Source of the DNA: a virus
Taxonomy: Duplodnaviria; Caudoviricetes
Direction: 5' to 3' (one strand)
IMG/VR virus record: IMGVR_UViG_3300026549_000050
Span: 32,001 to 96,000 of that record
Length of the DNA: 64,000 nucleotides
Shown: positions 1 through 26,000 of the stretch, piece after piece
Layout: the number at the start of each line of letters is the position of its first letter
How positions within the stretch are numbered: the stretch's first letter is position 1
Program-made: the position numbers and the translations under genes
The notes under the pieces: model-generated
Told to the model about the DNA's origin: nothing
What the model saw: only the letters and a program-made list of their open reading frames with translations
The model's database searches: none

Positions 1-484
1 TATTATATGCCCACTCTTTATAAGCCCACTGTTTACAGATTGTATCTTGTGCCATTTTGAGAGTATCCCAAAGTGGTATTCCATAAGGGAGGAAAAACCT
101 ATATTTTGACTTTGTAAGATATCTTTGTGTGCAAGTGGTGGCACGATAGTCAAATCTTGCGTTGTGTGCGATGATTGCTTTGACTTTGTAAGTGTCGCAA
201 AGTTCTTTAATTTTGTTTCTGATTGTAAAGTACTTTGCAATTGTGCGTTGTCCACTTGCTATCTGTTCTTCATACATTGGAATTTTCTTTGCATAGTAGG
301 CAGTTTTCATTAAGTCTTTCATTCCGCAAAATGTTTCATAGACTATAAAGGAAAATGTTTCGTATATATTACCCTTTTTATCGTGTATACAACCGCCTAT
401 ATCGTATACAATTGGATTATCAAGTCCGTTTGCGGTTTCTGTGTCGATTGTGAGATAGTAATTTTTTCTTCTGTCAATTTTCAT
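1..484 (-). CDS. DEDDh 3'-5' exonuclease (DnaQ-like), runs off the left edge
   Basis: Not in the ORF track; translated by hand from ATG at 484 (RBS GAAAGGAG): MKIDRRKNYYLTIDTETANGLDNPIVYDIGG...IIAHNARFD...; ExoI motif DxE and ExoII motif HNxxFD; clear paralogue of 3942..4583. Confidence 0.85.
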   Translation of the reverse strand, partial: MKIDRRKNYYLTIDTETANGLDNPIVYDIGGCIHDKKGNIYETFSFIVYETFCGMKDLMKTAYYAKKIPMYEEQIASGQRTIAKYFTIRNKIKELCDTYKVKAIIAHNARFDYRATTCTQRYLTKSKYRFFLPYGIPLWDTLKMAQDTICKQWAYKEWAYN

Positions 485-517
485 TTCTGTATTGACTCCT
501 TTCTTTAATGTAACTAA

Positions 518-546
518 AGTATACCATAGAATCAAACCAATTGCAA
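518..546 (-). promoter_or_regulatory. Sigma-A-type promoter (TTGCAA-17-TATACT, extended -10)
   Basis: Reverse complement reads TTGCAA ttggtttgattctatgg TATACT upstream of the exonuclease RBS. Confidence 0.7.
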
Positions 547-634
547 CCCCTTTTAGAAAAATTTTTTATGTTTTTATTTTCGTACAAGATTGCGCCCGGG
601 CGCGAAGAACGTATGTTCGATGAAGAGGGATTGC

Positions 635-1090
635 CTAAGCAACCCCTTTCAGAATTTCTATGATATTGTCAACATCGTATGCAGTACCAATCCAATTTGT
701 TCTGTTTGGTTCTTCATCGTCAAAGAGTATTCCATTTGGGAAACGAACGACTGTTTCTTTCGGTGTGCCATATGGTACGATTTTAATTTCGTCAAACTTT
801 ACATTTTTGAGATGTGTTTTCAACCAATTTATTTTGGCAACCTTTACTCTTTCATCATATTCTTCTGTGGAGTTTTTAGGCAACCAACTTACAATACCGA
901 TTGTATATCCGTTTCTCTGTAACTTGTTGAGAAGTCTTGCAAGTACATTCATTTTTATCATTGGGATTGCGTTTGTATATGGTGTGGTTTCTCTTGCGAT
1001 AATCATATCCAACCAACCATTTACACCATAGAGATTTGCGATAGTACCGTCCATATCGAAATAAATTGCTTTGTTAGTAATCATCATCAT
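635..1090 (-). CDS. HAD-superfamily phosphatase, 5'(3')-deoxyribonucleotidase-like
   Basis: YFDMDGT motif I and LFDD motif IV; start moved to 1090 (RBS GAGGT) because the longer ORF would cover its own promoter; paralogue of 6522..6965. Confidence 0.8.
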   Translation of the reverse strand: MMMITNKAIYFDMDGTIANLYGVNGWLDMIIARETTPYTNAIPMIKMNVLARLLNKLQRNGYTIGIVSWLPKNSTEEYDERVKVAKINWLKTHLKNVKFDEIKIVPYGTPKETVVRFPNGILFDDEEPNRTNWIGTAYDVDNIIEILKGVA

Positions 1091-1224
1091 ATTTCTTACC
1101 TCTCTTTCTGTATTCATTATAGTCGATGAAGAGGGAAAAGTCAATACCCTTTTATGTTTTTTTATGTTTTTTTCGTTGGTGGCGCCCGGGCCATCCGAAC
1201 ATATGTTCTTTTTTAATTAAATGA

Positions 1225-1250
1225 AAAAGTCCACTGTAAGTGGACTTCTT
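1225..1250 (-). terminator. Intrinsic terminator after winged-helix gene 1328..1654
   Basis: AAGTCCAC-5nt-GTGGACTT hairpin followed by a short T-run on the minus strand. Confidence 0.6.
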
Positions 1251-1327
1251 CAATAAAGGAGGTAAACAATTTTCATAAAAGTGGGAAAAGGTTTTTTAAG
1301 GGATAAACCTTTTCAAAACCCTTGCGA

Positions 1328-1654
1328 CTACAGTGAGTAAGCCTTGCGAGTACCCTTACCCTTTACCTTTACATCGCTAACTGTCAGACCCTCAATCTGC
1401 TTGAGGAGAGCAGACGCTTTCTGTGTGGAGATTTCAACCTTTTCGGCAATCTCTGTGGCAGTCTGTGGCTCTTCTGTGAGAACGCCCTTGATTGCTTCTA
1501 TTATTGGGGCATTTTCGAGTGCCTTTTTCGATACTGTTTCTCTACGCTTTGCGTTACGAGCATCGAGTTTTTCGAGTTCCTCTCTTACCTTTGCGATAAC
1601 CTCATCAGTGATGTTGCCATTAACGATTTCTACGAACATTTCTCTGTTAGTCAT
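1328..1654 (-). CDS. Small winged-helix DNA-binding protein (paralogue 1)
   Basis: N-terminal amphipathic/coiled helix; C-terminal wHTH (QTATEIAEKVEISTQKASALL...DVKVKGKGTRKAYSL); strong RBS; own promoter at 1699-1727. Confidence 0.75.
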   Translation of the reverse strand: MTNREMFVEIVNGNITDEVIAKVREELEKLDARNAKRRETVSKKALENAPIIEAIKGVLTEEPQTATEIAEKVEISTQKASALLKQIEGLTVSDVKVKGKGTRKAYSL

Positions 1655-1756
1655 AATTCTTTTTCCTTTCTACTGACTTAACTTTATCTTATGTTTGTAT
1701 TATATCAGACTTTGTGGTGTCTGTCAATACCTTTTTTATGTTTTTCTTTGTTTTTC

Positions 1757-1844
1757 TGTCAAGGGGAACTTTTGACGCGTCCGTCATGGGATTCGAACCC
1801 TTGGCAAGCATTGGGCAGCCCACTTGCACCTAATCCCCTTGACA
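1757..1844 (-). ncRNA. Putative structured small RNA, unit C copy 1 (T-loop cloverleaf)
   Basis: Own promoter TTGACA(1873-1878)-17-TACAAT(1850-1855); 11-bp closing stem UGUCAAGGGGA/UCCCCUUGACA; three internal hairpins including GGG-UUCGAAU-CCC; no RBS-led ORF. Confidence 0.7.
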
Positions 1845-1936
1845 ATTATATTGTATCAGATTTTTATTAATCTGTCAATACCTTTTTTAGATTTTTTTAT
1901 TTTTTTGAGATTTTTTTCTCTCTTTACTGTATCTAT

Positions 1937-1965
1937 ATTATACTACAGATTTTTTATTTTGTCAA
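1937..1965 (-). promoter_or_regulatory. Consensus promoter TTGACA-17-TATAAT within array 1, with no stem cassette behind it
   Basis: Exact consensus hexamers with 17-bp spacing; followed only by about 60 nt of A-rich sequence. Confidence 0.65.
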
Positions 1966-1993
1966 GTGTTTTTTCAAACTTTTTTAATTTTTT

Positions 1994-2094
1994 TGTCTAA
2001 AGGGAGAACTGTTTTTTAGTGTTGAGATAGACGCATCTACTTCCCACTCACGCTCAACTTTCTTGGGATAGTTTTTCGTGTTCTCCCTTTGACA
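1994..2094 (-). ncRNA. Putative structured small RNA, unit E (possible pseudoknot)
   Basis: Promoter TTGACT(2123-2128)-17-TATACT(2100-2105); closing stem UGUCAAAGGGAGAAC/GUUCUCCCUUUAGACA; interleaved UCCCA/UGGGA and GUUGAG/CUCAAC pairings. Confidence 0.65.
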
Positions 2095-2215
2095 ATTATA
2101 GTATAGCAAAATTCTCAAATTAAGTCAACTATTTTTCTTAAAAAATCTTGTACTAAAATCCGTACAAGGCGCCCGGTCCGTTTGAACGTATGTTCGTCAT
2201 TATAAAAGTGAGGAA

Positions 2216-2647
2216 TTAAACCTCACTTAGTTTACAAATAATATTATTACATTCTACTTCATGATTACGATAATAATTTATTGCCCATTCTGTTGCATGA
2301 TACTCCATTGGTATGTTAAAATATTCACGATTGAATTCTTCAAAATTATCTTCTTCATATTTCATTTGTAAAAGAAAATAAATTACATTTCTTTCTTCAT
2401 TTAATTCCTCTGTATATGTCATTATATGCCCTATTTCGTGTAATACTGACATTAAATAAGGATTAAAATCTACATTAAATTCTTGTTTAAGAAACTGCGA
2501 CCATATTCTATCTTCCTCTTCATTTAGTTCGTGTGGTATATAGATAATTTCTTCTTGTATATCTACACAAAATCTATTATCATTTTCAACTTCTATATAT
2601 TCATCAATTGTTTTTATAAAATCTCTTATTAAAGTAATTTTATTCAT
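2216..2647 (-). CDS. Acidic protein with HExxH zinc-metallopeptidase motif
   Basis: VLHEIGH plus a downstream E (PMEYHA), the pattern of ImmA/IrrE-type zincins; own RBS and promoter. Confidence 0.55.
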   Translation of the reverse strand: MNKITLIRDFIKTIDEYIEVENDNRFCVDIQEEIIYIPHELNEEEDRIWSQFLKQEFNVDFNPYLMSVLHEIGHIMTYTEELNEERNVIYFLLQMKYEEDNFEEFNREYFNIPMEYHATEWAINYYRNHEVECNNIICKLSEV

Positions 2648-2777
2648 TTGTTTTTCTCCTTTCTATATTTTTAGTATAAACCAAATTTATAAAATTGTCA
2701 AGTATTTTTTAATAGTTATTTTTTTCACAAAGTGGCCCGGACCGACCGGCCGCGAACGTATGTTCGTTTTGTTCGTA

Positions 2778-2806
2778 AAAAAAGAACGCACGTTTCGTGC
2801 GTTCAA
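2778..2806 (-). terminator. Intrinsic terminator after winged-helix gene 2815..3153
   Basis: GAACGCACG-3nt-CGTGCGTTC hairpin plus T7 on the minus strand. Confidence 0.8.
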
Positions 2807-2814
2807 TTTTTCGA

Positions 2815-3153
2815 CTATGCGAGTGAGTAAGACTTCTGTGTACCCTTACCCTTGACTTTTACGTCCTCGACAGTGAGAGTACCAACCTCTACCAACTGTC
2901 TGCAAAGGGCAGACGCTTTTGATGTGGAGATTTCGCAACCCTTTGCGATTTCACTTGCGAGATGTGAACCATCAGCGAGGAACTCAACGATTTTTGCCTT
3001 GATTGGCTCGTTCTCGACAGACTTCTTGGAAGGCATATTCTTTCTCTTTGCGTTCCTCTCATCGAGTTTTGCGATTTCCTCTGTTGCCTTTGCGATTACT
3101 TCGTCTGTGAGGTTTCCGTTAATTACTTCTGTAAGCATTTCTCTGAGTGTCAT
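2815..3153 (-). CDS. Small winged-helix DNA-binding protein (paralogue 2)
   Basis: Clearly similar to 1328..1654 (MTxREM...NGNxTDEVIAK...DVKVKGKGTxKxYSL); promoter at 3198-3226. Confidence 0.75.
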   Translation of the reverse strand: MTLREMLTEVINGNLTDEVIAKATEEIAKLDERNAKRKNMPSKKSVENEPIKAKIVEFLADGSHLASEIAKGCEISTSKASALCRQLVEVGTLTVEDVKVKGKGTQKSYSLA

Positions 3154-3243
3154 AATTTTTTCCTTTCTACTGACATTTAACTTTATCTTATGTTTGTATT
3201 ATATCAGACTTTTTGGTGTCTGTCAATACCTTTTTTGAATTTT

Positions 3244-3343
3244 TCAAAGGGGAGAGGGCGCTTGACAGAAATTTATATAGCGCATCCGCGTCTTTCTCTG
3301 TAATGAGAATGTTCTTTCTTTGAACTATCCTCTCCCCTTGATA
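3244..3343 (-). ncRNA. Putative structured small RNA, unit D
   Basis: Promoter TTGACA(3372-3377)-17-TACAAT(3349-3354); closing stem UCAAGGGGAGAGG/CCUCUCCCCUUUGA; internal hairpins GUUC/GAAC, UUCUC/GAGAA, CGC/GCG. Confidence 0.65.
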
Positions 3344-3402
3344 ATTATATTGTATCAGATTTTTATTAATCTGTCAATACCTTTTTTAAATTTTTTTTAT
3401 TT

Positions 3403-3490
3403 TGTCAAGGGGAACTTTTGACGCGTCCGTCATGGGATTCGAACCCTTGGCAAGCATTGGGCACCCCACTTGCACCTAATCCCCTTGACA
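3403..3490 (-). ncRNA. Putative structured small RNA, unit C copy 2
   Basis: 88-nt copy of 1757..1844 with one substitution in a hairpin loop; promoter TTGACA(3519-3524)-17-TACAAT(3496-3501). Confidence 0.7.
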
Positions 3491-3518
3491 ATTATATTGT
3501 ATCAGATTTCTCTGATTT

Positions 3519-3661
3519 TGTCAAGAGGGTTTTGAAAAGTTTTTCAATTTTTTTTCGATGTCCTCTTCCCACAAAACTCTGTTCGCTCAATGTGAGTGTG
3601 CAAGGGTAAGCCCTTAGCCCCAAAGAGATTTCTCTTAATGGTCGTCATCTCCCTCTTGACA
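3519..3661 (-). ncRNA. Putative structured small RNA, unit B
   Basis: Promoter TTGACA(3690-3695)-17-TACAAT(3667-3672); closing stem UGUCAAGAGGG/CCCUCUUGACA; hairpins AAGAG/CUCUU, AAGGG/CCCUU, CUCA/UGAG. Confidence 0.6.
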
Positions 3662-3725
3662 ATTATATTGTATCAGATTTCTTTTAATCTGTCAAGCCTT
3701 TTTTAGATTTTTTTTATTTTTTTTA

Positions 3726-3819
3726 GTCGACTTGGGGAGAGATTTTCATATCAGAGAGTCCATAAGGCGCATTATCTCTCGTTGACGCCAACTTCGGAAT
3801 TTTATCTCTCCCCTTGACA
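3726..3819 (-). ncRNA. Putative structured small RNA, unit A (possible kissing loops)
   Basis: Promoter TTGACT(3848-3853)-17-TATACT(3825-3830); closing stem GGGGAGAGAU/AUCUCUCCCC; two hairpins with complementary loops (GGCGU and GCGCC). Confidence 0.65.
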
Positions 3820-3941
3820 ATTATAGTATAGCAAAATTTTTAAAATAAGTCAACACTTTTCTTTGTATTTGTTTAGAAACAATCGCGTTAATTTTTTAAC
3901 AAAGTGCCGGGCGCGGTAGACAATAAAAATGTGATAGTAAA

Positions 3942-4583
3942 CTACCACATTTTTGTTTCATAATAGAAACCATCAATTTTTTCACAAGCGAGCAATATTT
4001 TATATTCAATCTCACAATCTGCGAGTGCAGTATGCTCTTCTGTGAAATTTTTATCAAACATATACTGTGCTACGATTTCTGCGGTATATCTGTTTGCGTT
4101 TCTCTTTGTCAGATAGTTATTATCTTTACAAAATGCTCTGTATTCTTTATCGTTTTTGAGGACGTGGCGAGAGAGTGCAAGAATGTCGTGGAATTCTGTA
4201 CCATAAGGGAAGAAATACCTCCACTTTGAACTTGTAATATATCTCTGTGTCGTTGCGAGTGAGCAATAATCAAAATTACAATTATAAGCAAATACTTTTT
4301 TGATGTTGTATTTTTTCATAATGTGGCGAAGTGTCCACTTAACATTATTAAATGATGTAAGAGTGCGTTTTCCGTCTTTAATCTCTTTCCAATACTGTGG
4401 AATTTTTTCATTGAAGTATGCAACACTCATTAATTCTTTATTAAGAAAAATATCTGCGATTACAAAACTGTCTTTGTGGTAAATTGTTCCGTTGAAGTCT
4501 GCGACTATATAACCTAAATCATAGACGAGTGCGTCATCAAGTGAGTTTGTTGTTTCTGTGTCGAGAATTAAAATCTTTTCCAT
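3942..4583 (-). CDS. DEDDh 3'-5' exonuclease (DnaQ-like)
   Basis: ILDTET (ExoI), AYNCNFD (ExoII), EEHTALAD (ExoIII HxAxxD). Confidence 0.85.
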   Translation of the reverse strand: MEKILILDTETTNSLDDALVYDLGYIVADFNGTIYHKDSFVIADIFLNKELMSVAYFNEKIPQYWKEIKDGKRTLTSFNNVKWTLRHIMKKYNIKKVFAYNCNFDYCSLATTQRYITSSKWRYFFPYGTEFHDILALSRHVLKNDKEYRAFCKDNNYLTKRNANRYTAEIVAQYMFDKNFTEEHTALADCEIEYKILLACEKIDGFYYETKMW

Positions 4584-4708
4584 TGTTTTACTTCCTTTCT
4601 TTTGATATATTTATTATAAGCGATGAAGAGGATAAAGTCAAGTATAAATCTTGTTTTTTTATGTTTTTTTCGTCGAAGGCGGCCCGGTCAAAAAAAAGAA
4701 CAAGTGTT

Positions 4709-4873
4709 CTACAACCACTTGTCCAAATTGTTTTTATTTACTTTTTCTCTTTTCTTCCTTTTATCGGAATAAACACCTGTTCTAAATGGTATGTCCTGCA
4801 TACCTCTTGACTTTTTTATAAGGTCAAGTCCACTAATTGTGGATACATGAATTGTTTTCTTTTTCTTTCCCAT
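4709..4873 (-). CDS. Small basic hypothetical protein (54 aa)
   Basis: Hand-translated MGKKKKTIHVSTISGLDLIKKSRGMQDIPFRTG...; RBS GAGGT; below the ORF-track cut-off. Confidence 0.6.
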   Translation of the reverse strand: MGKKKKTIHVSTISGLDLIKKSRGMQDIPFRTGVYSDKRKKREKVNKNNLDKWL

Positions 4874-4877
4874 TTTT

Positions 4878-5021
4878 CTACCTCACTCCGTTTTTCTTTC
4901 CTACTAAATATATGTAGAGTTTCAGCAAGTCTTGTGCATTTTTTCTCATCAAGAAATCTCTTGATTTTTCCGATACGCAACCCATAATTATTAGTCTGTT
5001 TGTCATTTCCATTTTACTCAT
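4878..5021 (-). CDS. Small hypothetical protein (47 aa)
   Basis: MSKMEMTNRLIIMGC...; RBS GAAAGGAG with a sigma-A promoter just upstream. Confidence 0.6.
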   Translation of the reverse strand: MSKMEMTNRLIIMGCVSEKSRDFLMRKNAQDLLKLYIYLVGKKNGVR

Positions 5022-5175
5022 TGTTTTTCTCTCCTTTCTTTTCCTATAATAATATTACCACAATTATAGGAAGTTGTCAAGCAAAAATTTCAATAAATAT
5101 TTTTTTAACAAACTTTTCGACCGGCCGCACTCGACGAACATCTGTTCGATGAAGAGGGATAAAAAAGAGCGCGCA

Positions 5176-5538
5176 TTACTGCGCGCCCTTTTCTGCAATC
5201 TCTTTTTTCTTCTCTCTGATTGCTTTATCTTTGGCAATCTTTTGTTTCTTTTTCTCTTCTCTTTCTTTTGCTTTCTCCTCTTTCTCTGCAAGTTTATGTT
5301 CGTAATCTTGCGCGAGTTCATAACCATCGTAGACCTCAAGACCTTTGTTTGCGCCTGTTGGAATTTTAACGGTTATGACTGCAAAGTCTTCGTTTCCCTC
5401 ACAACCAACGCAAGGAATTGCTATCTCATTCGACTTTACTCTTAAAACCTCTTCATTTTGGGAGAGAAAACAATCAATAATTCTCTGAAGAAACTCACCT
5501 CTCAAAATTTCACGCTCGACTTTTCTTGAAACTGCCAT
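5176..5538 (-). CDS. Hypothetical protein with charged C-terminal helix
   Basis: Strong RBS, own promoter, terminator-like hairpin overlapping the stop. Confidence 0.7.
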   Translation of the reverse strand: MAVSRKVEREILRGEFLQRIIDCFLSQNEEVLRVKSNEIAIPCVGCEGNEDFAVITVKIPTGANKGLEVYDGYELAQDYEHKLAEKEEKAKEREEKKKQKIAKDKAIREKKKEIAEKGAQ

Positions 5539-5628
5539 ATTGTCAACTCCTTTCTTTTTTTTAAATTCTCTTTATTTTCTAAAATTATTATAACAAATTT
5601 TTACAAAAAAGTCAAATTATTTTTTGTT

Positions 5629-5772
5629 TTATTTTAGGAACAAAGGCACATAGAACATTATCGGAAGTGAAACCAAAAACAAAAATCCGAAAAAATCGTG
5701 GTTTGTTATTTCTGTAAGAATACCGCAGAACATAGCAAAGATTACCCATATTGTGAAAATTACCCAAATCAT
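5629..5772 (-). CDS. Small membrane protein (47 aa, two hydrophobic segments)
   Basis: MIWVIFTIWVIFAMFCGILTE...FFGFLFLVSLPIMFYVPLFLK; RBS GAAAGGAG. Confidence 0.6.
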   Translation of the reverse strand: MIWVIFTIWVIFAMFCGILTEITNHDFFGFLFLVSLPIMFYVPLFLK

Positions 5773-5958
5773 ATTTCTATCTCCTTTCTTTTTACAAACT
5801 AATTCTACAATATTCGGATTGTAAAGTCAATAGTTTTCGGAAAAATTTTTTCAATAGTTATTTTTTTAACAATCGCGCCCGGGCAATTCGCACAAATGTT
5901 CGATTATGGGATAAAAAAGATTGTACGAATTTTAGAATAAATTCGTACAATCTTTTTT

Positions 5959-6348
5959 CTAACGAAGTCTTTTACAGTCAATTACTGCAACTACATCATC
6001 GCAATAATTTGTATATGGATTGTAAACAAAGTATGATATAACCTTTTTATCTTTCTTTACATATTTGTTATATCTTACATATTCGCCTTTCTTACTATAT
6101 CCATAGTAACCACGAGAGTAGGAAGTAAACTTTTCAACATAGACAAACTTTGTATTCTTTCTGTGTTCCATTTTCTTTGCGTTGTACTTTGTAAATACTC
6201 TGATTGTCTTTGTTGGATAATGTTTCTTACAATACTGTTTCATTATTGTATAGTCTGTTTTTGTCTGTGCATAACTTGGAGACACATAGACAGAACACAT
6301 AAGAATAGCAATAACGAGTAGTGGAATAATAAACGGATTTCTTTTCAT
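5959..6348 (-). CDS. Basic, Tyr/Lys-rich protein with a predicted signal peptide
   Basis: Start moved to MKRNPFIIPLLVIAILMCSVYVSPSYA (RBS GAAAGGAG); n/h/c-region signal pattern. Confidence 0.65.
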   Translation of the reverse strand: MKRNPFIIPLLVIAILMCSVYVSPSYAQTKTDYTIMKQYCKKHYPTKTIRVFTKYNAKKMEHRKNTKFVYVEKFTSYSRGYYGYSKKGEYVRYNKYVKKDKKVISYFVYNPYTNYCDDVVAVIDCKRLR

Positions 6349-6521
6349 AACTATGTCTCCTTTCTTTAGTCTAATTATACTCGATGAAGAGGGATAAGTC
6401 AATACCTTATTTTGTTTTTATTGACGTACAATCGCGCGACTGCATGGATAGTCTTGAACGTATGTTCGATGGACCGGCCGCCGAACACGTGTTCTTCTGC
6501 GTTCAATCTCAAAGGGATTGT

Positions 6522-6965
6522 CTATGCAATCCCTTTGAGTACCTCGATGATGTTGTCAACGTCGAACGCTGTACCCGTCCAAGCGTCTCTATTTGGTTTT
6601 TCATCATCGAACAGAATACCATTTTTATCGCTTACTATTTCGTGTTTTGGTGTTCCATATTCTACGATGTGAATTTCATCGAACTGTACGCTTTTCAGAT
6701 GTATTTTTAACCATTTGATTTTTGTGGTGCGTACTCTCTCGTTATATTCTTTTGTTCCGTTCTTTGCCGTCCACGAAACAATACCGACTTTAAAACCTTT
6801 TCTTTTCAGACCGTTCAGAAGTCTTGCGAGTGCGTTCATTCCTACCATCGGCTCTGCGAGTGCATAAGGTGTAGTTTCTTCTGCTCTCAACATTGGAAGC
6901 CAATTCTCTACTGCATAAAGGTTAGCGATTGTTCCGTCCATATCGAAGTAAATTGTTCTTGTCAT
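6522..6965 (-). CDS. HAD-superfamily phosphatase, deoxyribonucleotidase-like (paralogue 2)
   Basis: YFDMDGTIANLY and GILFDDE; highly similar to 635..1090. Confidence 0.8.
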   Translation of the reverse strand: MTRTIYFDMDGTIANLYAVENWLPMLRAEETTPYALAEPMVGMNALARLLNGLKRKGFKVGIVSWTAKNGTKEYNERVRTTKIKWLKIHLKSVQFDEIHIVEYGTPKHEIVSDKNGILFDDEKPNRDAWTGTAFDVDNIIEVLKGIA

Positions 6966-7152
6966 TGTTTTATTCTCCTTTCCTTTCTGTATCTATACTA
7001 TACCATACATTTTACAATCTGTCAATCCCTTTTTTATGTTTTTCTTTGTTTTTTTATTGTTAAATAATTAACAAAGTCGCCCGGTCTATCGCACAAATGT
7101 TCGATGAAGAGGATAAAAAATAGACCTTTATTTTTAAGGTCTATTTTTATTT

Positions 7153-7332
7153 CTAATTTGTTTCAAACATTTCTACTTTTTCGATAGTGTATTTTGTTGT
7201 GTTGTGTTCTGTATTAAGTTCTTTTGCTGTTTCTTCAGCATTTTCTTTTGAGTAGCACCACATTACGAGTGAGGTTTCTCCGATTCTTACTGTTGATGGC
7301 TTTACTACAGCCCATGTTGTGTTAGTCTTCAT
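7153..7332 (-). CDS. Small hypothetical protein (59 aa)
   Basis: MKTNTTWAVVKPSTVRIGETSLVMWCY...; RBS AAAGGAGG, own promoter and terminator. Confidence 0.6.
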   Translation of the reverse strand: MKTNTTWAVVKPSTVRIGETSLVMWCYSKENAEETAKELNTEHNTTKYTIEKVEMFETN

Positions 7333-7442
7333 TGTTCTTTCCTCCTTTGTTGTCTTTATTATAGCTCACTTAATCTCTTTTGTCAAGCTCTAATCTTGTA
7401 TTTCTTTGTTCTTTCTTCCGGCTGAGCCTGAGAGCTTGAGGC

Positions 7443-7910
7443 TTAGCCTCTTGCTCTCATTCTCATCATCTGTCCCTCTGTGATGAAGGTTGCCTTTTCA
7501 AACTTGAGCTGATAGGCTACTCCGTCAACTGTGAGGTCTCCGTCCTCTGTGAATGGTACATTGTCTTTTATCCATTCCTGTCCGTTCAGCTCGGTTATCA
7601 TCTTCTCAAATACCTCGCCTTTGTTGTACTTGCTCGTTTCCACCATTGCGTTGAAGTATTCAACGGAGCAGAGGAGCTGTGGGTTCAGGTCGAACATCAG
7701 GCTTTTCTGTGTGTGGTCTGGTTTGAATCTGAGGCTATAGCCAGCACCTCTTGAAGCCTTATCGAGCTTTGTGAGATGGTCGAGCATTGAGCCGTCAACG
7801 ATTACAAAGTACACGTTGCCTTTGTTTGTGAAGCCGAGAATATATCTGTGTGTGTACGCTTTGCGATTGTAAAAGTCTACTAACATTTTTTTAATCTCGT
7901 TGTTTTTCAT
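7443..7910 (-). CDS. Hypothetical protein, possible PD-(D/E)xK-like fold
   Basis: ATG at 7910 with RBS GAGGTGA; KGEVFE...DGD...YQLK pattern. Confidence 0.55.
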   Translation of the reverse strand: MKNNEIKKMLVDFYNRKAYTHRYILGFTNKGNVYFVIVDGSMLDHLTKLDKASRGAGYSLRFKPDHTQKSLMFDLNPQLLCSVEYFNAMVETSKYNKGEVFEKMITELNGQEWIKDNVPFTEDGDLTVDGVAYQLKFEKATFITEGQMMRMRARG

Positions 7911-8050
7911 TTTGTTCACCTCATTTCGTTTGCTTTATCTTATGTCTTAATTATATTCATTTATAAAACAATGTCAATAACTTTTACATTAAAAATAGAT
8001 TAAAAATAAATTAATTTTTAGTTTCGGGAAGTGTACCCGCCACGTCAAAA

Positions 8051-11657: not shown

Positions 11658-13468
11658 TGCAAGAAAAACGAAAGAAAGTAATTCTTAGCAATCGTCAAGA
11701 ATTAATGAATGACGACTTCATTGAACGTGCAGAGCGCGCGGGCATAGAATTGGAGAAAGGCGCGGTTATTACTACTGAATATCTGGAAAGAAATTATGAA
11801 GACCTGTGTAAGTGGGTAAATTTATTCACTGCTTATCCAGATTACTATTTAGATATAATTAGACCAGCAGATTCTGAATTTAGTTTATTTTTCTATCAGA
11901 GATTTACACTGCGCGCGTTGATGAGATTTAAGGATGTATTTATTACTGCGCCGCGTGCGTTTTCAAAATCGTTCATTACAATATTAGCTCTTTTCTTACA
12001 ATGTGTATTTATTCCTGGTCGCAAAGTATTCATGTGTGCGAACACAAAACAACAGGCGGCGCAAATTACAAAAGAAAAGATTTATGAAATATACGACCAT
12101 TGGCCGCTTTTGAAGAAAGAAATAATCGGTTGGGAGTTAAGCGATTATCCGGGTAATTTTGGCAAAGATTACGTAACGCTTAAATTTAGAAATGGTTCGG
12201 TTTTTGACGTAGTGCTTGCTGGCGATGCTGCCCGTGGAGGGCGCCGGCACGGCGGAGAGATTGATGAGATAAGAGATGGCGATGAAGAATCTATTAACTC
12301 TGTAGTTATTCCTCTTGTAAACGTATCTCGTCGTTTACCAAACAATACCGTAAATGAAAAGGAACCAAACCAACAAATTATTGCTACAACTTCTGCAGGC
12401 AGTAAAACTTCTTTTGCATATGACCGTTTAATTGACACATTTGAAAATGCAATTATTGACCCACAACATTCTTTTATGTTTGGATGCGATTGGCGGCTGC
12501 CCGCCATGCATGGTTTGATTGATAAACAATATATTAATAAATTAAAAATGAGTCCGTCATATAATGCGGAGTCATTTGCTACTGAGTATTTATCTCTTTG
12601 GCAAGGTTCGAGCGAGGATGCATGGTTCTCATATGAGAAATTATCGAAATATAGAAAAATAAAGAATCCAGAAACGCACGCAATTAATAGACCCGATTCC
12701 GAACAATTCTACTTAATATCAGTAGACGTTGGCCGAATTTCGGACCAAACCGCAGTTAGCGTTTTTAGAGTTAATGTGGTTAAGAATAAATTTTATTCAA
12801 CTTTAGTAAATTTAATAGTGTTAGGCAGAACTCCACAAACCAAGCCATTTGCGGTTCAGGCGGTTGATTTGAAGAAAATAATTCAACAATTCAATCCGCG
12901 TGAGGTGGTAATAGATACGAATGGTTTGGGTGTAGGCTTGGCTGATGAAATGATTAAGCCACAATACGATGAGATGGGAAATGTACTGCCTGCCTATGGA
13001 TTTATCAATGATGATAACTATAAAAAAATTCAACCTAAAGATGCACCACAAATTCTTTATGGAATTAAAGCAAATGGACCATTGAATTCAAAAATTCACG
13101 GTAATTGCTATTCTCGTTTAACAAGCGGAATGGCGCGTTTTCTTATAAAAGAGCAAGAAGCAAAAAGTGCTTTATTGTCTACTAAAAAAGGTCAAAAAAT
13201 GACTGTGGAACAACGAGTTATACGTTTAATGCCACATGAGATGACCACTAAGTTATTTGAAGAGATGGCTAATTTACGTTTAAAGCGCACTGGCGCAAGT
13301 CTAGATATAGTTCTCGAACGAATTAATAGTCGTTTTCCAAAGGATAAATATTCAAGTTTTTCTTATGGATTGTGGCGCATTAAAGAGTTGGAAGAAGAAT
13401 ATTATAAAACTAGTCACCGTCGTCGCGCGGCCGGTCGTAAATTAGTATTTTTCTCAGGAGGAAGGTAA
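11657..13468 (+). CDS. terL: Terminase large subunit
   Basis: Walker A-like APRAFSKS, Walker B GGEIDE, RNase H-like nuclease ISVDVG...D and C-terminal KDKYS. Confidence 0.9.
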   Translation: MQEKRKKVILSNRQELMNDDFIERAERAGIELEKGAVITTEYLERNYEDLCKWVNLFTAYPDYYLDIIRPADSEFSLFFYQRFTLRALMRFKDVFITAPRAFSKSFITILALFLQCVFIPGRKVFMCANTKQQAAQITKEKIYEIYDHWPLLKKEIIGWELSDYPGNFGKDYVTLKFRNGSVFDVVLAGDAARGGRRHGGEIDEIRDGDEESINSVVIPLVNVSRRLPNNTVNEKEPNQQIIATTSAGSKTSFAYDRLIDTFENAIIDPQHSFMFGCDWRLPAMHGLIDKQYINKLKMSPSYNAESFATEYLSLWQGSSEDAWFSYEKLSKYRKIKNPETHAINRPDSEQFYLISVDVGRISDQTAVSVFRVNVVKNKFYSTLVNLIVLGRTPQTKPFAVQAVDLKKIIQQFNPREVVIDTNGLGVGLADEMIKPQYDEMGNVLPAYGFINDDNYKKIQPKDAPQILYGIKANGPLNSKIHGNCYSRLTSGMARFLIKEQEAKSALLSTKKGQKMTVEQRVIRLMPHEMTTKLFEEMANLRLKRTGASLDIVLERINSRFPKDKYSSFSYGLWRIKELEEEYYKTSHRRRAAGRKLVFFSGGR

Positions 13469-23044: not shown

Positions 23045-23082
23045 TTTTTAATTAACGTCATTTTTATTTGGAGGAGAAGATA

Positions 23083-26000
23083 ATGGCAGAAACTGTTGAT
23101 ATTCTATTACGAGCGCGAATGGAAGCCAACGAAGTTACGTCTAGTATTGGCCAAATTCAAAAGTCATTACAAAGCTTAACTTTACCTAAAGGACTTTCCA
23201 ATGATTTAGAAAAAGAATTTAGTAAAATAGGTCCATTATTAAAAGATTATCAAAAGCAATTAAACAAGGGGTTTTCTAATAAAAAAGACCTCCAAACTTT
23301 TAGTGCCTTAAAAGAGCAAATTGGAGATACTTTAGGAACTATAAAAACACTTGTTAATCAAGCCAATTCGCAACAAATTAGATTAAAAGTAGATACACAG
23401 GCTATCGACCAGTTACAAAATAAAATTGTTTCTAAAACCGAAGCTTTACAAAAAGCATTAAGTCAAGTATTTACTAAATCTGTTAATGCGGATAATATAG
23501 CTACTCAGTTTGATAAAGTATTACAATCTACTTCTAGGTCTACCTCAGTTAAAGGAATGATTGGTAATGCTGGTAAATTATTTAATGCTCAAGAATATGC
23601 AGCATATAATGCAGAATTAGATAAAATTAAAAATAAGATTTTAAGTCTAAGTACAAGCAAAGTTAATTTTGCTAAATCATTAGGTGTTAAAGACGCTGAA
23701 AAAGATATTGCTGCAGTTGAGGCAAAAATTACTTCTTTTTTCAATAAATTAAAGGTTAATGAAGGTAAAGTTCAATCTATCGAATTACTTAAAAAAGAAC
23801 TGCGTGAAATGGGTGTTGAACTTGAACAATTAGATATATCTTCTAAACTAAAAGGTGCTGAAGAAGTTAATAGTTTACATGCCGGATTACAACAGATAGA
23901 GCAAGATTTTCATAATACTGGCAACGCGGCGAATGATGCTGCTTCTGGTATTCTTTCTATGAAAGATCAGGTGGGCCAGTTAAGACAATCGACTCAATAT
24001 TTCTTTAGTTTAAGAAATATGATAAATCTCTTTAAGAGAGGAATAGATGATGCGGTTAAGTCGGTTAAAGAATTAGATGCCGCCATGACGGAAACCGCAG
24101 TAGTTACCACCAATACTGTTGGTGATATGTGGAATATGCTTCCAGAATATACCAAAAATGCTAATGCATTGGGAGCAACTGTTTTAGATATGTATAAGGC
24201 AACAACTTTATACTATCAACAGGGTTTAAATGCAGAGCAGTCCATGTCAATTGCTGCTGAAACCATGAAGATGGCTAGAATTGGTGGATTAGAGGCTGCC
24301 GATGCTACCGATAAGATGACTGCTGCACTTCGTGGATTTAATATGGAAATTAATGAGTTGTCGGCACAACGCATTAATGACGTATATTCTAATTTAGCTG
24401 CTAAAACCGCATCTAATACTGAAGAATTAGGTAGTGCTATGCAACGTACCGCCTCTATTGCTCATTCCGCAGGCATGAGTTTTGAAGGTACGGCGGCATT
24501 TCTAGCACAGGCAATAGAAACTACCAGAGAACCAGCCGAAAACTTGGGTACGGCGATGAAAACAATTGTTGCCCGTTTCCAAGAATTAAAAGAAAATCCA
24601 TTAGAAATTGTTGAAGTAGATGGAGAGGAAGTTAGTTATAATAAAGTAGATACTGCATTACAATCTATTGGAGTTTCTTTAAAGGATGCTAATGGTCAGT
24701 TTAGAAATTTAGACAAAGTATTTTTAGAAATAGCCCAAAGATGGGATAGTTTAACACAAACTCAACAGCGTTATATAGCCACAACCGCGGCGGGTTCTCG
24801 TCAACAATCACGTTTTATCGCGATGATGAGTAACTATGAACGTACTATGCAGTTGATGAGCTATGCCAATGATAGCGCTGGAGCTTCTAATGAACAGTTT
24901 AATAAAACTATGGATTCATTAGAGGCTAAATTAAATAAATTACACAATGCTTGGCAAGCCTTTATGATGGGTATTGCAAATAATACTTTTGTTAAAGGCG
25001 CGGTTGATGGTTTAACTTTTGTTATAAGTCAAACAAATACATTAATTAATACTTTAAGTGGTGGTCGTGGTGTAATAAAATCTTTTCTTTCTTTATTTAC
25101 TGCCTTTACCGCTTTAAAAGGATTAGGTCGCTTCGCTAATGCTGCCATTGGTGGTTTGGGCGGTATGCTTGATCCACAATCTAGTTTTAAACAAGGGTTT
25201 TTTGGTGGCGGTATTATTGGCAATAAAGCTAATGCTAATGCGACTCAAGCAAGAATGATTTCTGACCCTATTGTTAATGCTATCAATAGATTATATCAGG
25301 CTCAAACAGGAAAGACGGTTACTAAAGATAGTCAAACTAGCGCCAAAGCAGATTATAAAGCTTTTACAGAAGCTAATACTGGTTTACGAGGAACAATTAA
25401 TCAGTTAAAACCTGGAGAACAATTTTCTATTGGCGAAGCCTATAGTAAGATTGATAAATTAGATACTCGTCAACAAAAAGCTGTATTACAACAATTGCCT
25501 GGGCTTACACTAAGTTTACAGAAAAATGGTATTAAATTTAATACAAAAGATATAAGCAGAAGTTCACAAGAACTTTTAAAAGTCTTTAATAAAGAAATAA
25601 ATGATGGTCTTAAAAATGGTAATATAGATTCTCAAACAGCATTAAAAATGTTTGGCTCTCCTCAAGAATTTGCTAAAGCCATGTCAGCCAGAGGAGATGA
25701 TTATGCTAGAGCCGCACAAGAAGTTCTTGGAAATAGTTTCGATAGGTCTACCTATAGAGAAGATTTAGCTAACAAATTATTACAAGTTGAAAAATTTAAA
25801 AATATGGATAAGGATAGTTTTAATAACTATCTAGACAAGGCTGTAGCAAAAAGAAATGAGAGAGATCAACAGGAATTTGCAGGATTCGCTACAAGTCAAA
25901 TAAGCAATGGTGCAAAATTAGCAAATAATATTGCTTCAGTTGGACAGGCCGCTACAATGGCGGGCCAAGGTGTAGCCCAGCTTGGTATGCAATTATCCAA

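What the first reader, a model, noticed from the sequence alone, without database searches (positions are those of the whole stretch)
1328..3853. Two arrays of individually promoted, stem-clamped small RNAs with variable cargo, each placed upstream of a winged-helix gene
Seen: six minus-strand non-coding units (1757-1844, 1994-2094, 3244-3343, 3403-3490, 3519-3661, 3726-3819) share one design. Each has an A-rich tract, TTGAC(A/T)-17 bp-TA(C/T)A(A/C)T, the spacer ATAATT, a 5' strand (G/A)UCAA(A/G)(G/A)GG..., a 60-120 nt interior, and a 3' strand complementary to the 5' strand. The closing stems differ between units yet stay paired (GGGGA/UCCCC, GGGAGAAC/GUUCUCCC, GGGGAGAGG/CCUCUCCCC, GAGGG/CCCUC, GGGGAGAGAU/AUCUCUCCCC), which is covariation. 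The interiors are five unrelated, GC-richer, hairpin-dense sequences. The expected +1 (about 7 nt after the -10) lands on the first stem base. No U-tract terminators separate the units. Both arrays end in a near-identical promoter and leader driving a wHTH paralogue. This is not CRISPR (no constant repeat/spacer length, no cas gene) and not tRNA. Inference: a phage early-expressed library of structured RNAs on a common scaffold, released by processing (e.g. RNase III-like cleavage). They could be decoys or antitoxin/tRNA mimics against host RNA-sensing defences, or ligands for the wHTH protein. I know no named system with this layout.
Basis: partly seen in the sequence, partly recalled or inferred. 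Interest (0 to 1): 0.92.

Follow-up and report, generated by a model that had tools for sequence, protein, structure and literature searches.

The report
Phage arrays of stem-clamped small RNAs
A large gut/rumen phage carries two rows of tiny non-coding RNA genes, each with its own strong promoter and a closing stem around a different folded interior. Related phages carry the same design with over a hundred different interiors, so this looks like an undescribed way for phages to make many small structured RNAs early in infection.

Summary
Six minus-strand units (1757-3819) share one design: near-consensus sigma70-type promoter, ATAATT, a 5' strand GUCAAGRGG at the predicted +1, an unrelated GC-richer interior, and a complementary 3' strand. 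The motif occurs only here in the 115-kb phage genome. No tRNA, Rfam family, CRISPR or ORF explains the units.

The design is widespread. I found 177 distinct promoted units in 146 viral or metagenomic loci, falling into 108 interior families. In 75% the 3' strand's TTGAC is also the next promoter's -35, and none has a U-tract. Pairing is at RNA level on this strand: G.U pairs occur but no A.C, and position 7 covaries. Interiors are real folds: the T-loop family has 5 compensatory pairs (0 of 500 shuffles), and GNRA/UNCG hairpins are enriched threefold. About 71% of units sit within 1.5 kb upstream of a phage-only winged-helix gene.

Best reading: early-expressed small-RNA cassettes on a shared clamp scaffold, shuffled between phages. 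A decoy or anti-defence role is plausible but unproven. A relative's operon carries a free-standing abiF antitoxin RNA motif.

RNase III release is doubtful. The scan had flagged this same stretch before (first-reader notes only).

The parts
3825..3853 (-). Promoter of unit A (first of array 2; TTGACT-17-TATACT, TG-extended)
3726..3819 (-). Unit A: 10-bp clamp GGGGAGAGAU/AUCUCUCCCC, singleton cargo
   Evidence: no homologue in about 2 Mb of related loci
3667..3695 (-). Promoter of unit B (TTGACA-17-TACAAT; spacer palindrome CAGATT/AATCTG)
3519..3661 (-). Unit B: 11-bp clamp. Its 3' strand is the -35 of unit C's promoter. Conserved flanks enclose a variable central domain
3496..3524 (-). Promoter of unit C; its -35 overlaps unit B's 3' strand; spacer hairpin with GAAA loop
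3403..3490 (-). Unit C: T-loop family (bulged hairpin, GGGUUCGAAUCCC arm, hairpin with GACG loop)
3349..3377 (-). Promoter of unit D
3244..3343 (-). Unit D: 13-14-bp clamp, begins AUCAAGGGG, singleton cargo
3198..3226 (-). Promoter of wHTH paralogue 2 (12/12 consensus; spacer palindrome CAGAC/GTCTG)
2815..3153 (-). wHTH paralogue 2 (112 aa), phage-only family phrog_19455
2784..2804 (-). Intrinsic terminator that closes array 2's transcription unit
2100..2128 (-). Promoter of unit E (first of array 1; same class as unit A's promoter)
1994..2094 (-). Unit E: 13-bp clamp. The interior is conserved in L055 and L161, which have different clamps
1937..1965 (-). Orphan consensus promoter with neither unit nor ORF behind it
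   Evidence: the L008 counterpart drives a small ORF
1850..1878 (-). Promoter of unit F
1757..1844 (-). Unit F: second copy of the T-loop family, differing from unit C by one base, in a hairpin loop
1699..1727 (-). Promoter of wHTH paralogue 1 (12/12 consensus)
1328..1654 (-). wHTH paralogue 1 (108 aa); model pLDDT 89.7, generic PadR/MarR/ArsR-like winged helix
1222..1252 (-). Intrinsic terminator that closes array 1's transcription unit

Best explanation
Each unit is a small non-coding RNA gene built as a cassette in the phage's early, host-RNA-polymerase-transcribed region.

Proposed mechanism:
1. A strong sigma70/sigmaA-type promoter (UP-like A-tract, -35, TG-extended -10) starts transcription at the G of GUCAAGRGG.
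2. A cargo domain of about 40-200 nt folds on its own.
3. The 3' strand CCYCUUGAC pairs with the 5' end to form a 9-14 bp clamp. This strand is usually the -35 box of the next promoter read as RNA.
4. There are no terminators, so polymerases read through into the next unit and the downstream gene.
5. The clamp insulates each cargo fold. After cleavage or 3' trimming in the AU-rich promoter-derived linker, it protects both ends, so stable small RNAs accumulate early.
6. The roughly 70-nt promoter modules are repeated and would serve as recombination handles. That would explain why cargo is swapped so freely between phages.
7. Cargoes are most likely binders or decoys of host (or rival) factors. 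One family copies a tRNA T-arm/elbow.
8. The conserved downstream winged-helix protein is the locus's regulator or partner, as Aca proteins are for variable anti-CRISPR genes.

Shown: the design, its spread, RNA-level pairing, structured cargo, and the wHTH linkage.
Inferred: the transcription start, read-through and trimming, RNA stability, the decoy role and the wHTH role.

The stated confidence is for the core claim, that these are functional, individually promoted, clamp-closed small-RNA cassettes. The decoy role alone I put at about 0.25-0.3.
For: - The motif is unique to the arrays in the genome. Promoters are near consensus, and there are no terminators between units. Clamped folds have z-scores down to -5.3.
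- The same layout, with two wHTH paralogues, is in L008.
- 177 distinct units in 146 loci form 108 cargo families, 78 of them singletons.
- In 132/177 units the 3' strand doubles as the next -35, and 0/177 have a U-rich tail.
- RNA-level pairing on this strand: 14 G.U and 0 A.C pairs in clamps. An A at position 7 always faces U, whereas cross-pairing units gives 22% mismatches. Variant 5' strands pair with the unchanged -35 through wobble.
- Cargo structure is selected. The T-loop family has 5 compensatory pairs and 97.7% of cells paired, with 0/500 shuffles as high. The E and B families keep their interior while the clamp or hairpins change. GNRA/UNCG hairpins number 36 against 11.3 +/- 3.3 in shuffles.
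- 103/145 assessable units from loci fetched without reference to wHTH have a wHTH homologue within 1.5 kb downstream.
- A relative (L037) carries a free-standing abiF RNA motif (45 bits, cut-off 37) in such an operon, with no Abi_2 gene on its partial record (27% complete). That motif is an experimentally shown RNA antitoxin (bioRxiv 10.1101/2025.04.15.648962).
Against: - There are no expression data.
- There are no terminators or known processing signals, so the units might exist only as parts of long leaders.
- The constancy of the 5' strand is partly ascertainment, because most loci were fetched with that motif.
- No cargo matches a known decoy or antitoxin. The abiF motif lies outside the clamped units, and the copy in this genome scores only 17 bits.
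- Some units are nearly empty (A-rich, no GC-rich cargo).
- Units A and D have no homologue among the loci held here, so their structure rests on single-sequence folding.
- The wHTH recognition helix is near invariant while the promoter-spacer palindromes vary. A simple operator model therefore fails.
Confidence: 0.6

Rival explanations
1. Tandem-promoter leader device. The units are not separate genes. They are structured modules of a long 5' UTR, and the repeated strong promoters serve only to drive and tune expression of the downstream winged-helix (or other early) gene, for example by stabilising its mRNA 5' end.
For: No terminators lie between the units and the gene. In 75% of units the 3' strand overlaps the next promoter, so every unit's RNA must run into the next element. 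71% lie just upstream of wHTH. 5' stem-loops are known mRNA stabilisers in Firmicutes (general knowledge).
Against: wHTH has its own 12/12 consensus promoter and a conserved leader right next to it. A cis-regulator should co-evolve with its gene, yet cargo falls into 108 unrelated families and turns over between close relatives. Cargo folds such as the T-loop family are conserved independently of the downstream gene. Units also precede unrelated small ORFs.
Confidence: 0.15
2. DNA-level shuffling cassettes. The repeated promoter modules and the inverted repeats that flank each interior act mainly as recombination sites, like PeSL cassettes of T4-type phages or hairpin recombination sites. On this view the interiors are passengers with no RNA function.
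For: There are eight copies of a roughly 70-nt promoter module. Cargo turnover is extreme, and empty units and an orphan promoter exist. PeSL-mediated shuffling is documented (PMC2839356).
Against: G.U but never A.C pairs, and wobble-compensated variants, point to pairing in RNA of one strand. Interior stems covary and carry GNRA/UNCG loops. No tyrosine integrase or reverse transcriptase is encoded. Homologous recombination at the promoter repeats is compatible with, and is part of, the best explanation.
Confidence: 0.1
3. Members of a known small-RNA class in disguise: degenerate tRNAs or tRNA-like RNAs, bacterial Y RNAs (YrlA-type), retron msr/msd, type III antitoxin repeats, or a CRISPR-like array.
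For: Units C and F have a canonical T-loop. A 112-nt unit in the L054 array scores as tRNA (37 bits). The 5'/3' closing stem recalls acceptor or Y-RNA stems.
Against: ARAGORN finds 0 tRNAs and Rfam 0 families in the window, even at E up to 10. None of 130 ARAGORN-predicted tRNAs in the loci then held sits directly behind such a promoter. The phage has no TROVE/Ro, reverse transcriptase or Abi_2 gene. The only direct repeat is the promoter module, at irregular spacing. Only 10 of 177 units have a T-loop.
Confidence: 0.05
4. Decayed remnants: the units are leftovers of small early gene cassettes that lost their ORFs and have no present function.
For: The orphan promoter at 1965-1937 matches a promoter that drives a small ORF in L008. 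Unit 5' strands resemble the purine-rich mRNA leaders of neighbouring genes.
Against: Decay would not create or keep complementary 3' strands, compensatory changes or tetraloop hairpins. Nor would it preserve near-consensus promoters on 177 units.
Confidence: 0.03

Closest known systems
PeSL (promoter-early stem-loop) cassettes of T4-type phages (Arbiol et al. 2010, PMC2839356; PMC4122927)
   Same: Repeated strong sigma70-type early promoters combined with stem-loops. They are concentrated in a plastic early region, flank variable cargo, and probably mediate modular shuffling by recombination.
   Different: PeSL stem-loops are local terminators and the cargo is ORFs. Here the stem spans the whole non-coding cargo, has no U-tract, and is built from the transcript start plus the next promoter's -35.
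Phage tRNA gene clusters and tRNA-like RNAs
   Same: Small structured RNAs whose 5' and 3' ends pair. One cargo family has a canonical T-arm. The same genome carries tRNAs elsewhere.
   Different: There is no cloverleaf, anticodon arm or CCA. Each unit has its own promoter. ARAGORN and Rfam do not recognise them, and most cargoes have no tRNA feature.
acr-aca anti-defence operons and RNA anti-defence decoys (pseudo-ToxI of phage PhiTE, RNA anti-CRISPRs; from my own knowledge)
   Same: Very strong early promoter, highly variable cargo, and a conserved small HTH gene downstream. The cargo is RNA, as in pseudo-ToxI and Racr. A relative carries an abiF antitoxin-type motif in the operon.
   Different: No cargo mimics a known repeat or antitoxin. 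The wHTH is not a known Aca family, and its helix does not track the promoter palindromes. Function is untested.
Bacterial Y RNAs (YrlA) and phi29 pRNA
   Same: RNAs of about 90-170 nt closed by a 5'/3' helix with functional internal modules. YrlA carries a tRNA-like T-arm, and pRNA is made from a strong early phage promoter.
   Different: There is no Rfam match and no Ro/TROVE gene. The phage is a long-tailed one of about 115 kb, not phi29-like. There are many unrelated cargoes rather than one RNA.
Repressor-gated tandem promoter arrays of a Limosilactobacillus phage-plasmid (earlier scan notes e1-3720500, e1-3776185)
   Same: Back-to-back consensus promoters with palindromes in the spacers, next to a small HTH gene.
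   Different: Those arrays have no structured cargo between promoters, and all share one operator. Here the palindromes are optional (19% at 6 bp or more), vary within a phage, and do not track the wHTH helix.

Membership tests
tRNA | Cloverleaf with anticodon arm, recognised by ARAGORN or RF00005 | tested here: not met
   0 tRNAs in the window. No RF00005 hit even at E up to 10; the only hit is a 13-nt T-loop match.
tRNA | T-arm with GUUCRAAUC loop | tested here: met
   Met only in units C and F, and in 10 of 177 units overall.
Any Rfam 15 family | Covariance-model score at or above gathering | tested here: not met
   0 matches in the window. Across 15 related loci the only hits were tRNAs and one abiF motif outside the units.
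CRISPR array | Constant direct repeat with regular spacing and unique spacers; cas genes | tested here: not met
   The only repeat is the roughly 70-nt promoter module, with spacing of 87-171 nt. Unit ends are inverted, not direct, repeats. cas genes were not searched for.
Retron msr/msd | Adjacent reverse transcriptase | tested here: not met
   No RVT_1 match in the complete genome.
Bacterial Y RNA (YrlA) / Ro RNP | Rfam Y-RNA model match; linked rsr (TROVE) gene | tested here: not met
   No Rfam hit and no TROVE gene in the phage. A host rsr gene could not be checked because the host is unknown.
Type III toxin-antitoxin (ToxI-like) | Tandem near-identical RNA repeats next to an endoribonuclease toxin gene | tested here: not met
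   Interiors are unrelated. The next gene is a wHTH. No Abi_2 gene is present.
PeSL cassette | Strong sigma70-like early promoter repeated through a plastic region | tested here: met
PeSL cassette | Stem-loop that is an effective intrinsic terminator; cargo is an ORF | tested here: not met
   No U-tract after any of the 177 clamps. Interiors are non-coding.
Integron attC / hairpin recombination site | Tyrosine recombinase; folded single-stranded DNA site | tested here: not met
   No Phage_integrase match. The G.U versus A.C asymmetry argues for RNA.
acr-aca-like anti-defence operon | Variable cargo upstream of a conserved small HTH gene | tested here: met
   103/145 units have a wHTH within 1.5 kb downstream; 108 cargo families.
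acr-aca-like anti-defence operon | The HTH protein represses the promoter through inverted repeats in it | tested here: inconclusive
   Spacer palindromes are enriched (19% against 4% at 6 bp or more), but they vary while the recognition helix is near invariant. Binding cannot be tested here.
acr-aca-like anti-defence operon | Cargo inhibits a defence system | not testable with these tools
   The only hint is a free-standing abiF motif in relative L037.

The most novel reading that the evidence does not exclude
These arrays are an RNA counterpart of anti-CRISPR/anti-defence loci. On this reading they form a recombination-shuffled, phage-borne library of more than a hundred families of clamp-stabilised decoy RNAs: tRNA-elbow mimics, antitoxin mimics and other protein baits. 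The RNAs would be fired from consensus promoters in the first minutes of infection. The scaffold re-uses each next promoter's -35 as half of the clamp, and a dedicated phage-only winged-helix protein acts as regulator or RNA partner.
Probability: 0.25. Interest if true: 0.92.

Novelty: new variant of a known kind. Interest (0 to 1): 0.8.

Why it matters
If the units are expressed as predicted, they make up a large, unannotated class of phage small RNAs: 108 cargo families in a shallow sample, and none in Rfam. The compact gene architecture has, as far as I could find, not been described. In it the promoter -35 doubles as RNA clamp, and there is no terminator.

The class would give a ready list of candidate RNA decoys against bacterial defences or host RNA-binding proteins. 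It would also offer a marker, the wHTH gene plus the clamp motif, for finding more such RNAs, in the way aca genes led to anti-CRISPRs.

The scaffold may also be useful as a natural design for expressing stable structured RNAs in Firmicutes.

Tried and rejected
- Self-targeting or antisense cargo: blastn-short of all six units against the whole phage genome gave only chance matches of 11-14 nt. The one exception was the T-loop hitting tRNA genes.
- Cultured relatives: there are no DNA or wHTH protein matches in 50,697 phage records. The neighbouring exonuclease gene finds only distant hits (35% identity or less) in Enterococcus phages.
- Host chromosomal copies: the genome-contig scan found clamped units only on short, phage-like MAG contigs. 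The other hits are ordinary promoter-plus-leader sites.
- The wHTH as a known structure: the PDB profile search and Foldseek give only generic MarR/PadR/ArsR-type winged helices, with no Foldseek hit at E <= 0.001. The Atlas gives only viral hypothetical proteins.
- Spacer palindromes as wHTH operators: rejected as a simple model, because the palindromes vary or are absent while the recognition helix stays the same.
- The 3488-aa ORF as a virion RNA polymerase with hairpin promoters: rejected, because it is a tape-measure protein.
- The abiF motif in this genome: the exact 15-nt core is present after tRNA-Asp, but the score is 17 bits against a cut-off of 37. It is not counted as a member.
- Alignment A7: two references were offset by one base, so its closing-stem 'compensatory' counts are artefacts and are not used. 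Only the interior hairpin is cited.
- Literature: full-text searches found no description of this layout.


Full report
**Context.** The window is bases 32,001-96,000 of a complete 115,301-bp virus record with direct terminal repeats. The phage encodes:
- a 3,488-aa tape-measure protein, Pol III alpha, an anaerobic ribonucleotide reductase and GyrA;
- several tRNAs, all elsewhere in the genome.

Its promoters, strong Shine-Dalgarno sites and relatives in rumen, herbivore-gut and human-gut metagenomes point to an anaerobic Bacillota host. This is an inference. Bases 1-8,000 of the window hold a minus-strand train of small early cassettes, each with its own promoter and terminator.

**Observation.** All six units are real.
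- The string ATAATT followed by RTCAARRGG occurs six times in the window and in the whole genome, all inside 1757-3824. Shuffles give 0.08.
- Each unit lies behind a TTGAC(A/T)-17-TAYAMT promoter with an extended -10 TG.
- The G of GUCAA is 7 nt past the -10 hexamer, the usual start distance. The start itself is inferred.
- RNAfold closes every unit with a 10-14-bp stem between its first and last bases. z-scores are -3.4 to -5.3, and -2.2 for unit A.
- Interiors are 40-56% GC and the promoter modules 13-25%. There is no credible ORF.
- No intrinsic terminator lies inside either array. The arrays end at the terminators after the two winged-helix genes.
- The two wHTH promoters and leaders are 80/86 identical.
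- ARAGORN, Rfam at gathering threshold and Rfam at E up to 10 find nothing except a 13-nt T-loop match in units C and F.
- The only direct repeat is the roughly 70-nt promoter module: eight copies at irregular spacing.

**Spread of the design.** Pattern scans with the -10/ATAATT/5'-strand motif returned:
- 62 stretches in IMG/VR;
- a handful of phage-like MAG contigs.

L008 shows the same layout as the window: two arrays, each ending in a wHTH paralogue, but mostly with different cargo.

I then required a full promoter and a clamp of at least 8 bp. That gave 177 distinct units in 146 loci, with a median length of 99 nt. By interior similarity they fall into 108 families, 78 of them singletons. 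Units A and D of the window have no homologue in about 2 Mb of related DNA. Units B, C/F and E have a few.

**The clamp.**
- In 132 of 177 units the TTGAC at the end of the 3' strand is itself the -35 hexamer of the next promoter. No unit has a U-rich tail.
- The window's A-tract-separated units are therefore the minority form. Unit B into unit C is the common form.
- The core stem GUCAAGRGG/CCYCUUGAC is nearly constant, but part of that constancy is ascertainment, because most loci were fetched with the 5' motif.
- The informative signals do not depend on that bias:
  - In a 60-unit subset, A at position 7 always faces U, while cross-pairing different units gives 22% mismatches.
  - Clamps in the same subset hold 14 G.U pairs and no A.C pair.
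  - In loci fetched through the wHTH protein, variant 5' strands (for example GUUAAGGGG and GUCAGAGGG) still pair with the unchanged -35 through U.G or G.U wobble.
- G.U tolerance with A.C avoidance means pairing in RNA of the promoter strand, not a DNA cruciform.
- Within the window and in family E, stem extensions differ while the cargo is conserved.

**The cargo.** The interiors are selected folds.
- The T-loop family comprises units C and F plus eight relatives. It has a bulged first hairpin, a T-arm, a hairpin with a GACG loop and, in the long form, a fourth AU-rich hairpin.
  - On seven long-form sequences, 97.7% of cells pair and five pairs show compensatory change.
  - None of 500 column shuffles reaches these values, and slid registers collapse.
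  - The short form adds three more compensatory pairs.
- Family E keeps its interior, including a UGCG-loop hairpin, under three different clamps.
- Family B keeps its flanks and an AAAU-loop hairpin with covarying stem around a variable centre.
- Across all interiors, 4-bp hairpins with GNRA or UNCG loops number 36, against 11.3 +/- 3.3 in shuffles.
- Only 10 units have a T-loop.
- One 112-nt unit in L054 scores as a tRNA.
- None of the 130 ARAGORN-predicted tRNAs in the loci then held sits behind such a promoter.

**The winged-helix gene.**
- The two paralogues (108 and 112 aa) belong to phrog_19455, which has no known function.
- They model confidently (pLDDT 89.7) as N-terminal helices plus a winged helix.
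- They resemble only generic MarR/PadR/ArsR-type domains.
- Their Atlas neighbours are viral hypothetical proteins only.
- Among loci fetched without reference to this protein, 103 of 145 assessable units have a homologue within 1.5 kb downstream on the same strand. Others precede unrelated small ORFs.
- Unit promoters are enriched for inverted repeats in the spacer (6 bp or more in 19%, against 4% of coding promoters), some with GAAA loops.
- These repeats vary within and between phages, while the recognition helix (consensus EISTQKASAL) barely changes. They are therefore not a simple operator for it.
- What the protein binds remains open: the constant +1 box, the clamp RNA, or something else.

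**Mechanism (inference).**
1. Host RNA polymerase fires each promoter early.
2. The transcript starts with the 5' clamp strand, and the cargo folds.
3. Transcription through the next promoter's -35 supplies the 3' strand.
4. With no terminator, polymerases continue.
5. Unit-length RNAs would arise by cleavage or 3' trimming in the AU-rich linker derived from the promoter. The clamp protects both ends and insulates the fold.

The repeated promoter modules give homologous-recombination handles, as shown for PeSL cassettes of T4-type phages (PMC2839356). That fits the extreme cargo turnover, the empty units and the orphan promoter at 1965-1937.

**Function.**
- The layout (very strong early promoter, hypervariable cargo, conserved small HTH gene) parallels acr-aca loci. 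This comparison rests on my own knowledge.
- One concrete hint is a relative, L037 (also L220). It carries a free-standing abiF RNA motif (45 bits against a cut-off of 37) at the terminator position after its wHTH gene, between two arrays.
  - There is no Abi_2 gene on its partial record, which is 27% complete.
- abiF-motif RNA has been shown to neutralise an AbiF toxin directly (bioRxiv 10.1101/2025.04.15.648962).
- In this genome only the exact 15-nt abiF core is present, after tRNA-Asp, at 17 bits. That is not a member.
- These points make an anti-defence decoy role plausible. They do not show it.

**What it is not.** It is not tRNA, CRISPR, a retron (no reverse transcriptase), a Ro/Y-RNA system (no TROVE gene, no Rfam hit), a type III toxin-antitoxin system, or an integron (no integrase). 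Antisense cargo against the phage's own genes is also excluded.

**Verdict.** The 'library of structured RNAs on a common scaffold' reading is supported by comparative evidence. Processing, expression and function are open. I rate it a new variant of known kinds (phage small-RNA genes and promoter/stem-loop early cassettes) with high interest. There is a 25% chance that it is a distinct RNA-based anti-defence locus type.

Noticed in passing
window 2150-2215, 2730-2775, 590-640, 1185-1215 (minus strand): Cassette boundaries carry a Firmicutes LexA-box-like palindrome (CGAAC-N4-GTTCG type) followed by a GC-rich CCGGGCGCC-like block, just upstream of the next A-rich promoter. The same pattern is seen in L008. 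Earlier scan notes count 11-19 such boxes in this 10-kb region.
   Followed up: no
window 1937-1965 (minus strand): A 12/12 consensus promoter with no unit and no ORF behind it. The matching promoter in L008 (about 476-505) drives a small ORF starting at 536. This looks like a cassette whose cargo was lost.
   Followed up: partly
L037:3642-3678 (-) (= L313; also L220): A free-standing abiF RNA motif (RF03085, 45.1 bits, cut-off 37) doubles as the terminator hairpin after a wHTH homologue, between two unit arrays. There is no Abi_2 gene on the 38.5-kb partial record. It is a candidate RNA antitoxin mimic.
   Followed up: partly
own genome G000:C1 about 11676-11690 (= L312:1177-1191), outside the window: An exact 15-nt match to the abiF motif core loop, flanked by a 6-bp outer stem, lies just after tRNA-Asp. 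It scores only 17 bits, below threshold.
   Followed up: yes
L054:12307-12418 (-): The third member of a unit array is a 112-nt tRNA-like RNA (RF00005, 37 bits). It has an acceptor-type closing stem, a T-arm and a long insertion, and sits directly behind a unit-type promoter.
   Followed up: no
promoter spacers, e.g. window 3496-3524 and 3349-3377; L008 about 185-215: Many unit promoters hold a 5-7-bp inverted repeat between -35 and -10. Some have GAAA or GAGA loops (ATCACA/TGTGAT, ATCAGA/TCTGAT, TCACC/GGTGA). In read-through RNA these would be small tetraloop hairpins between clamps. Their purpose is unknown.
   Followed up: partly
L098, L102, L104, L109, L117: about 40-60 nt upstream of the wHTH start (locus position about 3940-3990): Distant wHTH homologues share a leader hairpin just before the ribosome-binding site. 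The loop is of the GACCNAC type, and the stems covary (UGCG/CGCA, CGUG/CACG, GGUG/CACC). It is a possible autoregulatory RNA site. It is absent from the window's own leaders.
   Followed up: no
L008:2733-2795; L020:478-536: 'Empty' units: promoter, 7-9-bp clamp and only an A-rich interior with no GC-rich cargo. This suggests the scaffold can exist without a passenger.
   Followed up: no
window 23068-33534 (+): A 3,488-aa tape-measure protein (PhageMin_Tail plus decapeptide repeats), which implies an exceptionally long tail.
   Followed up: partly
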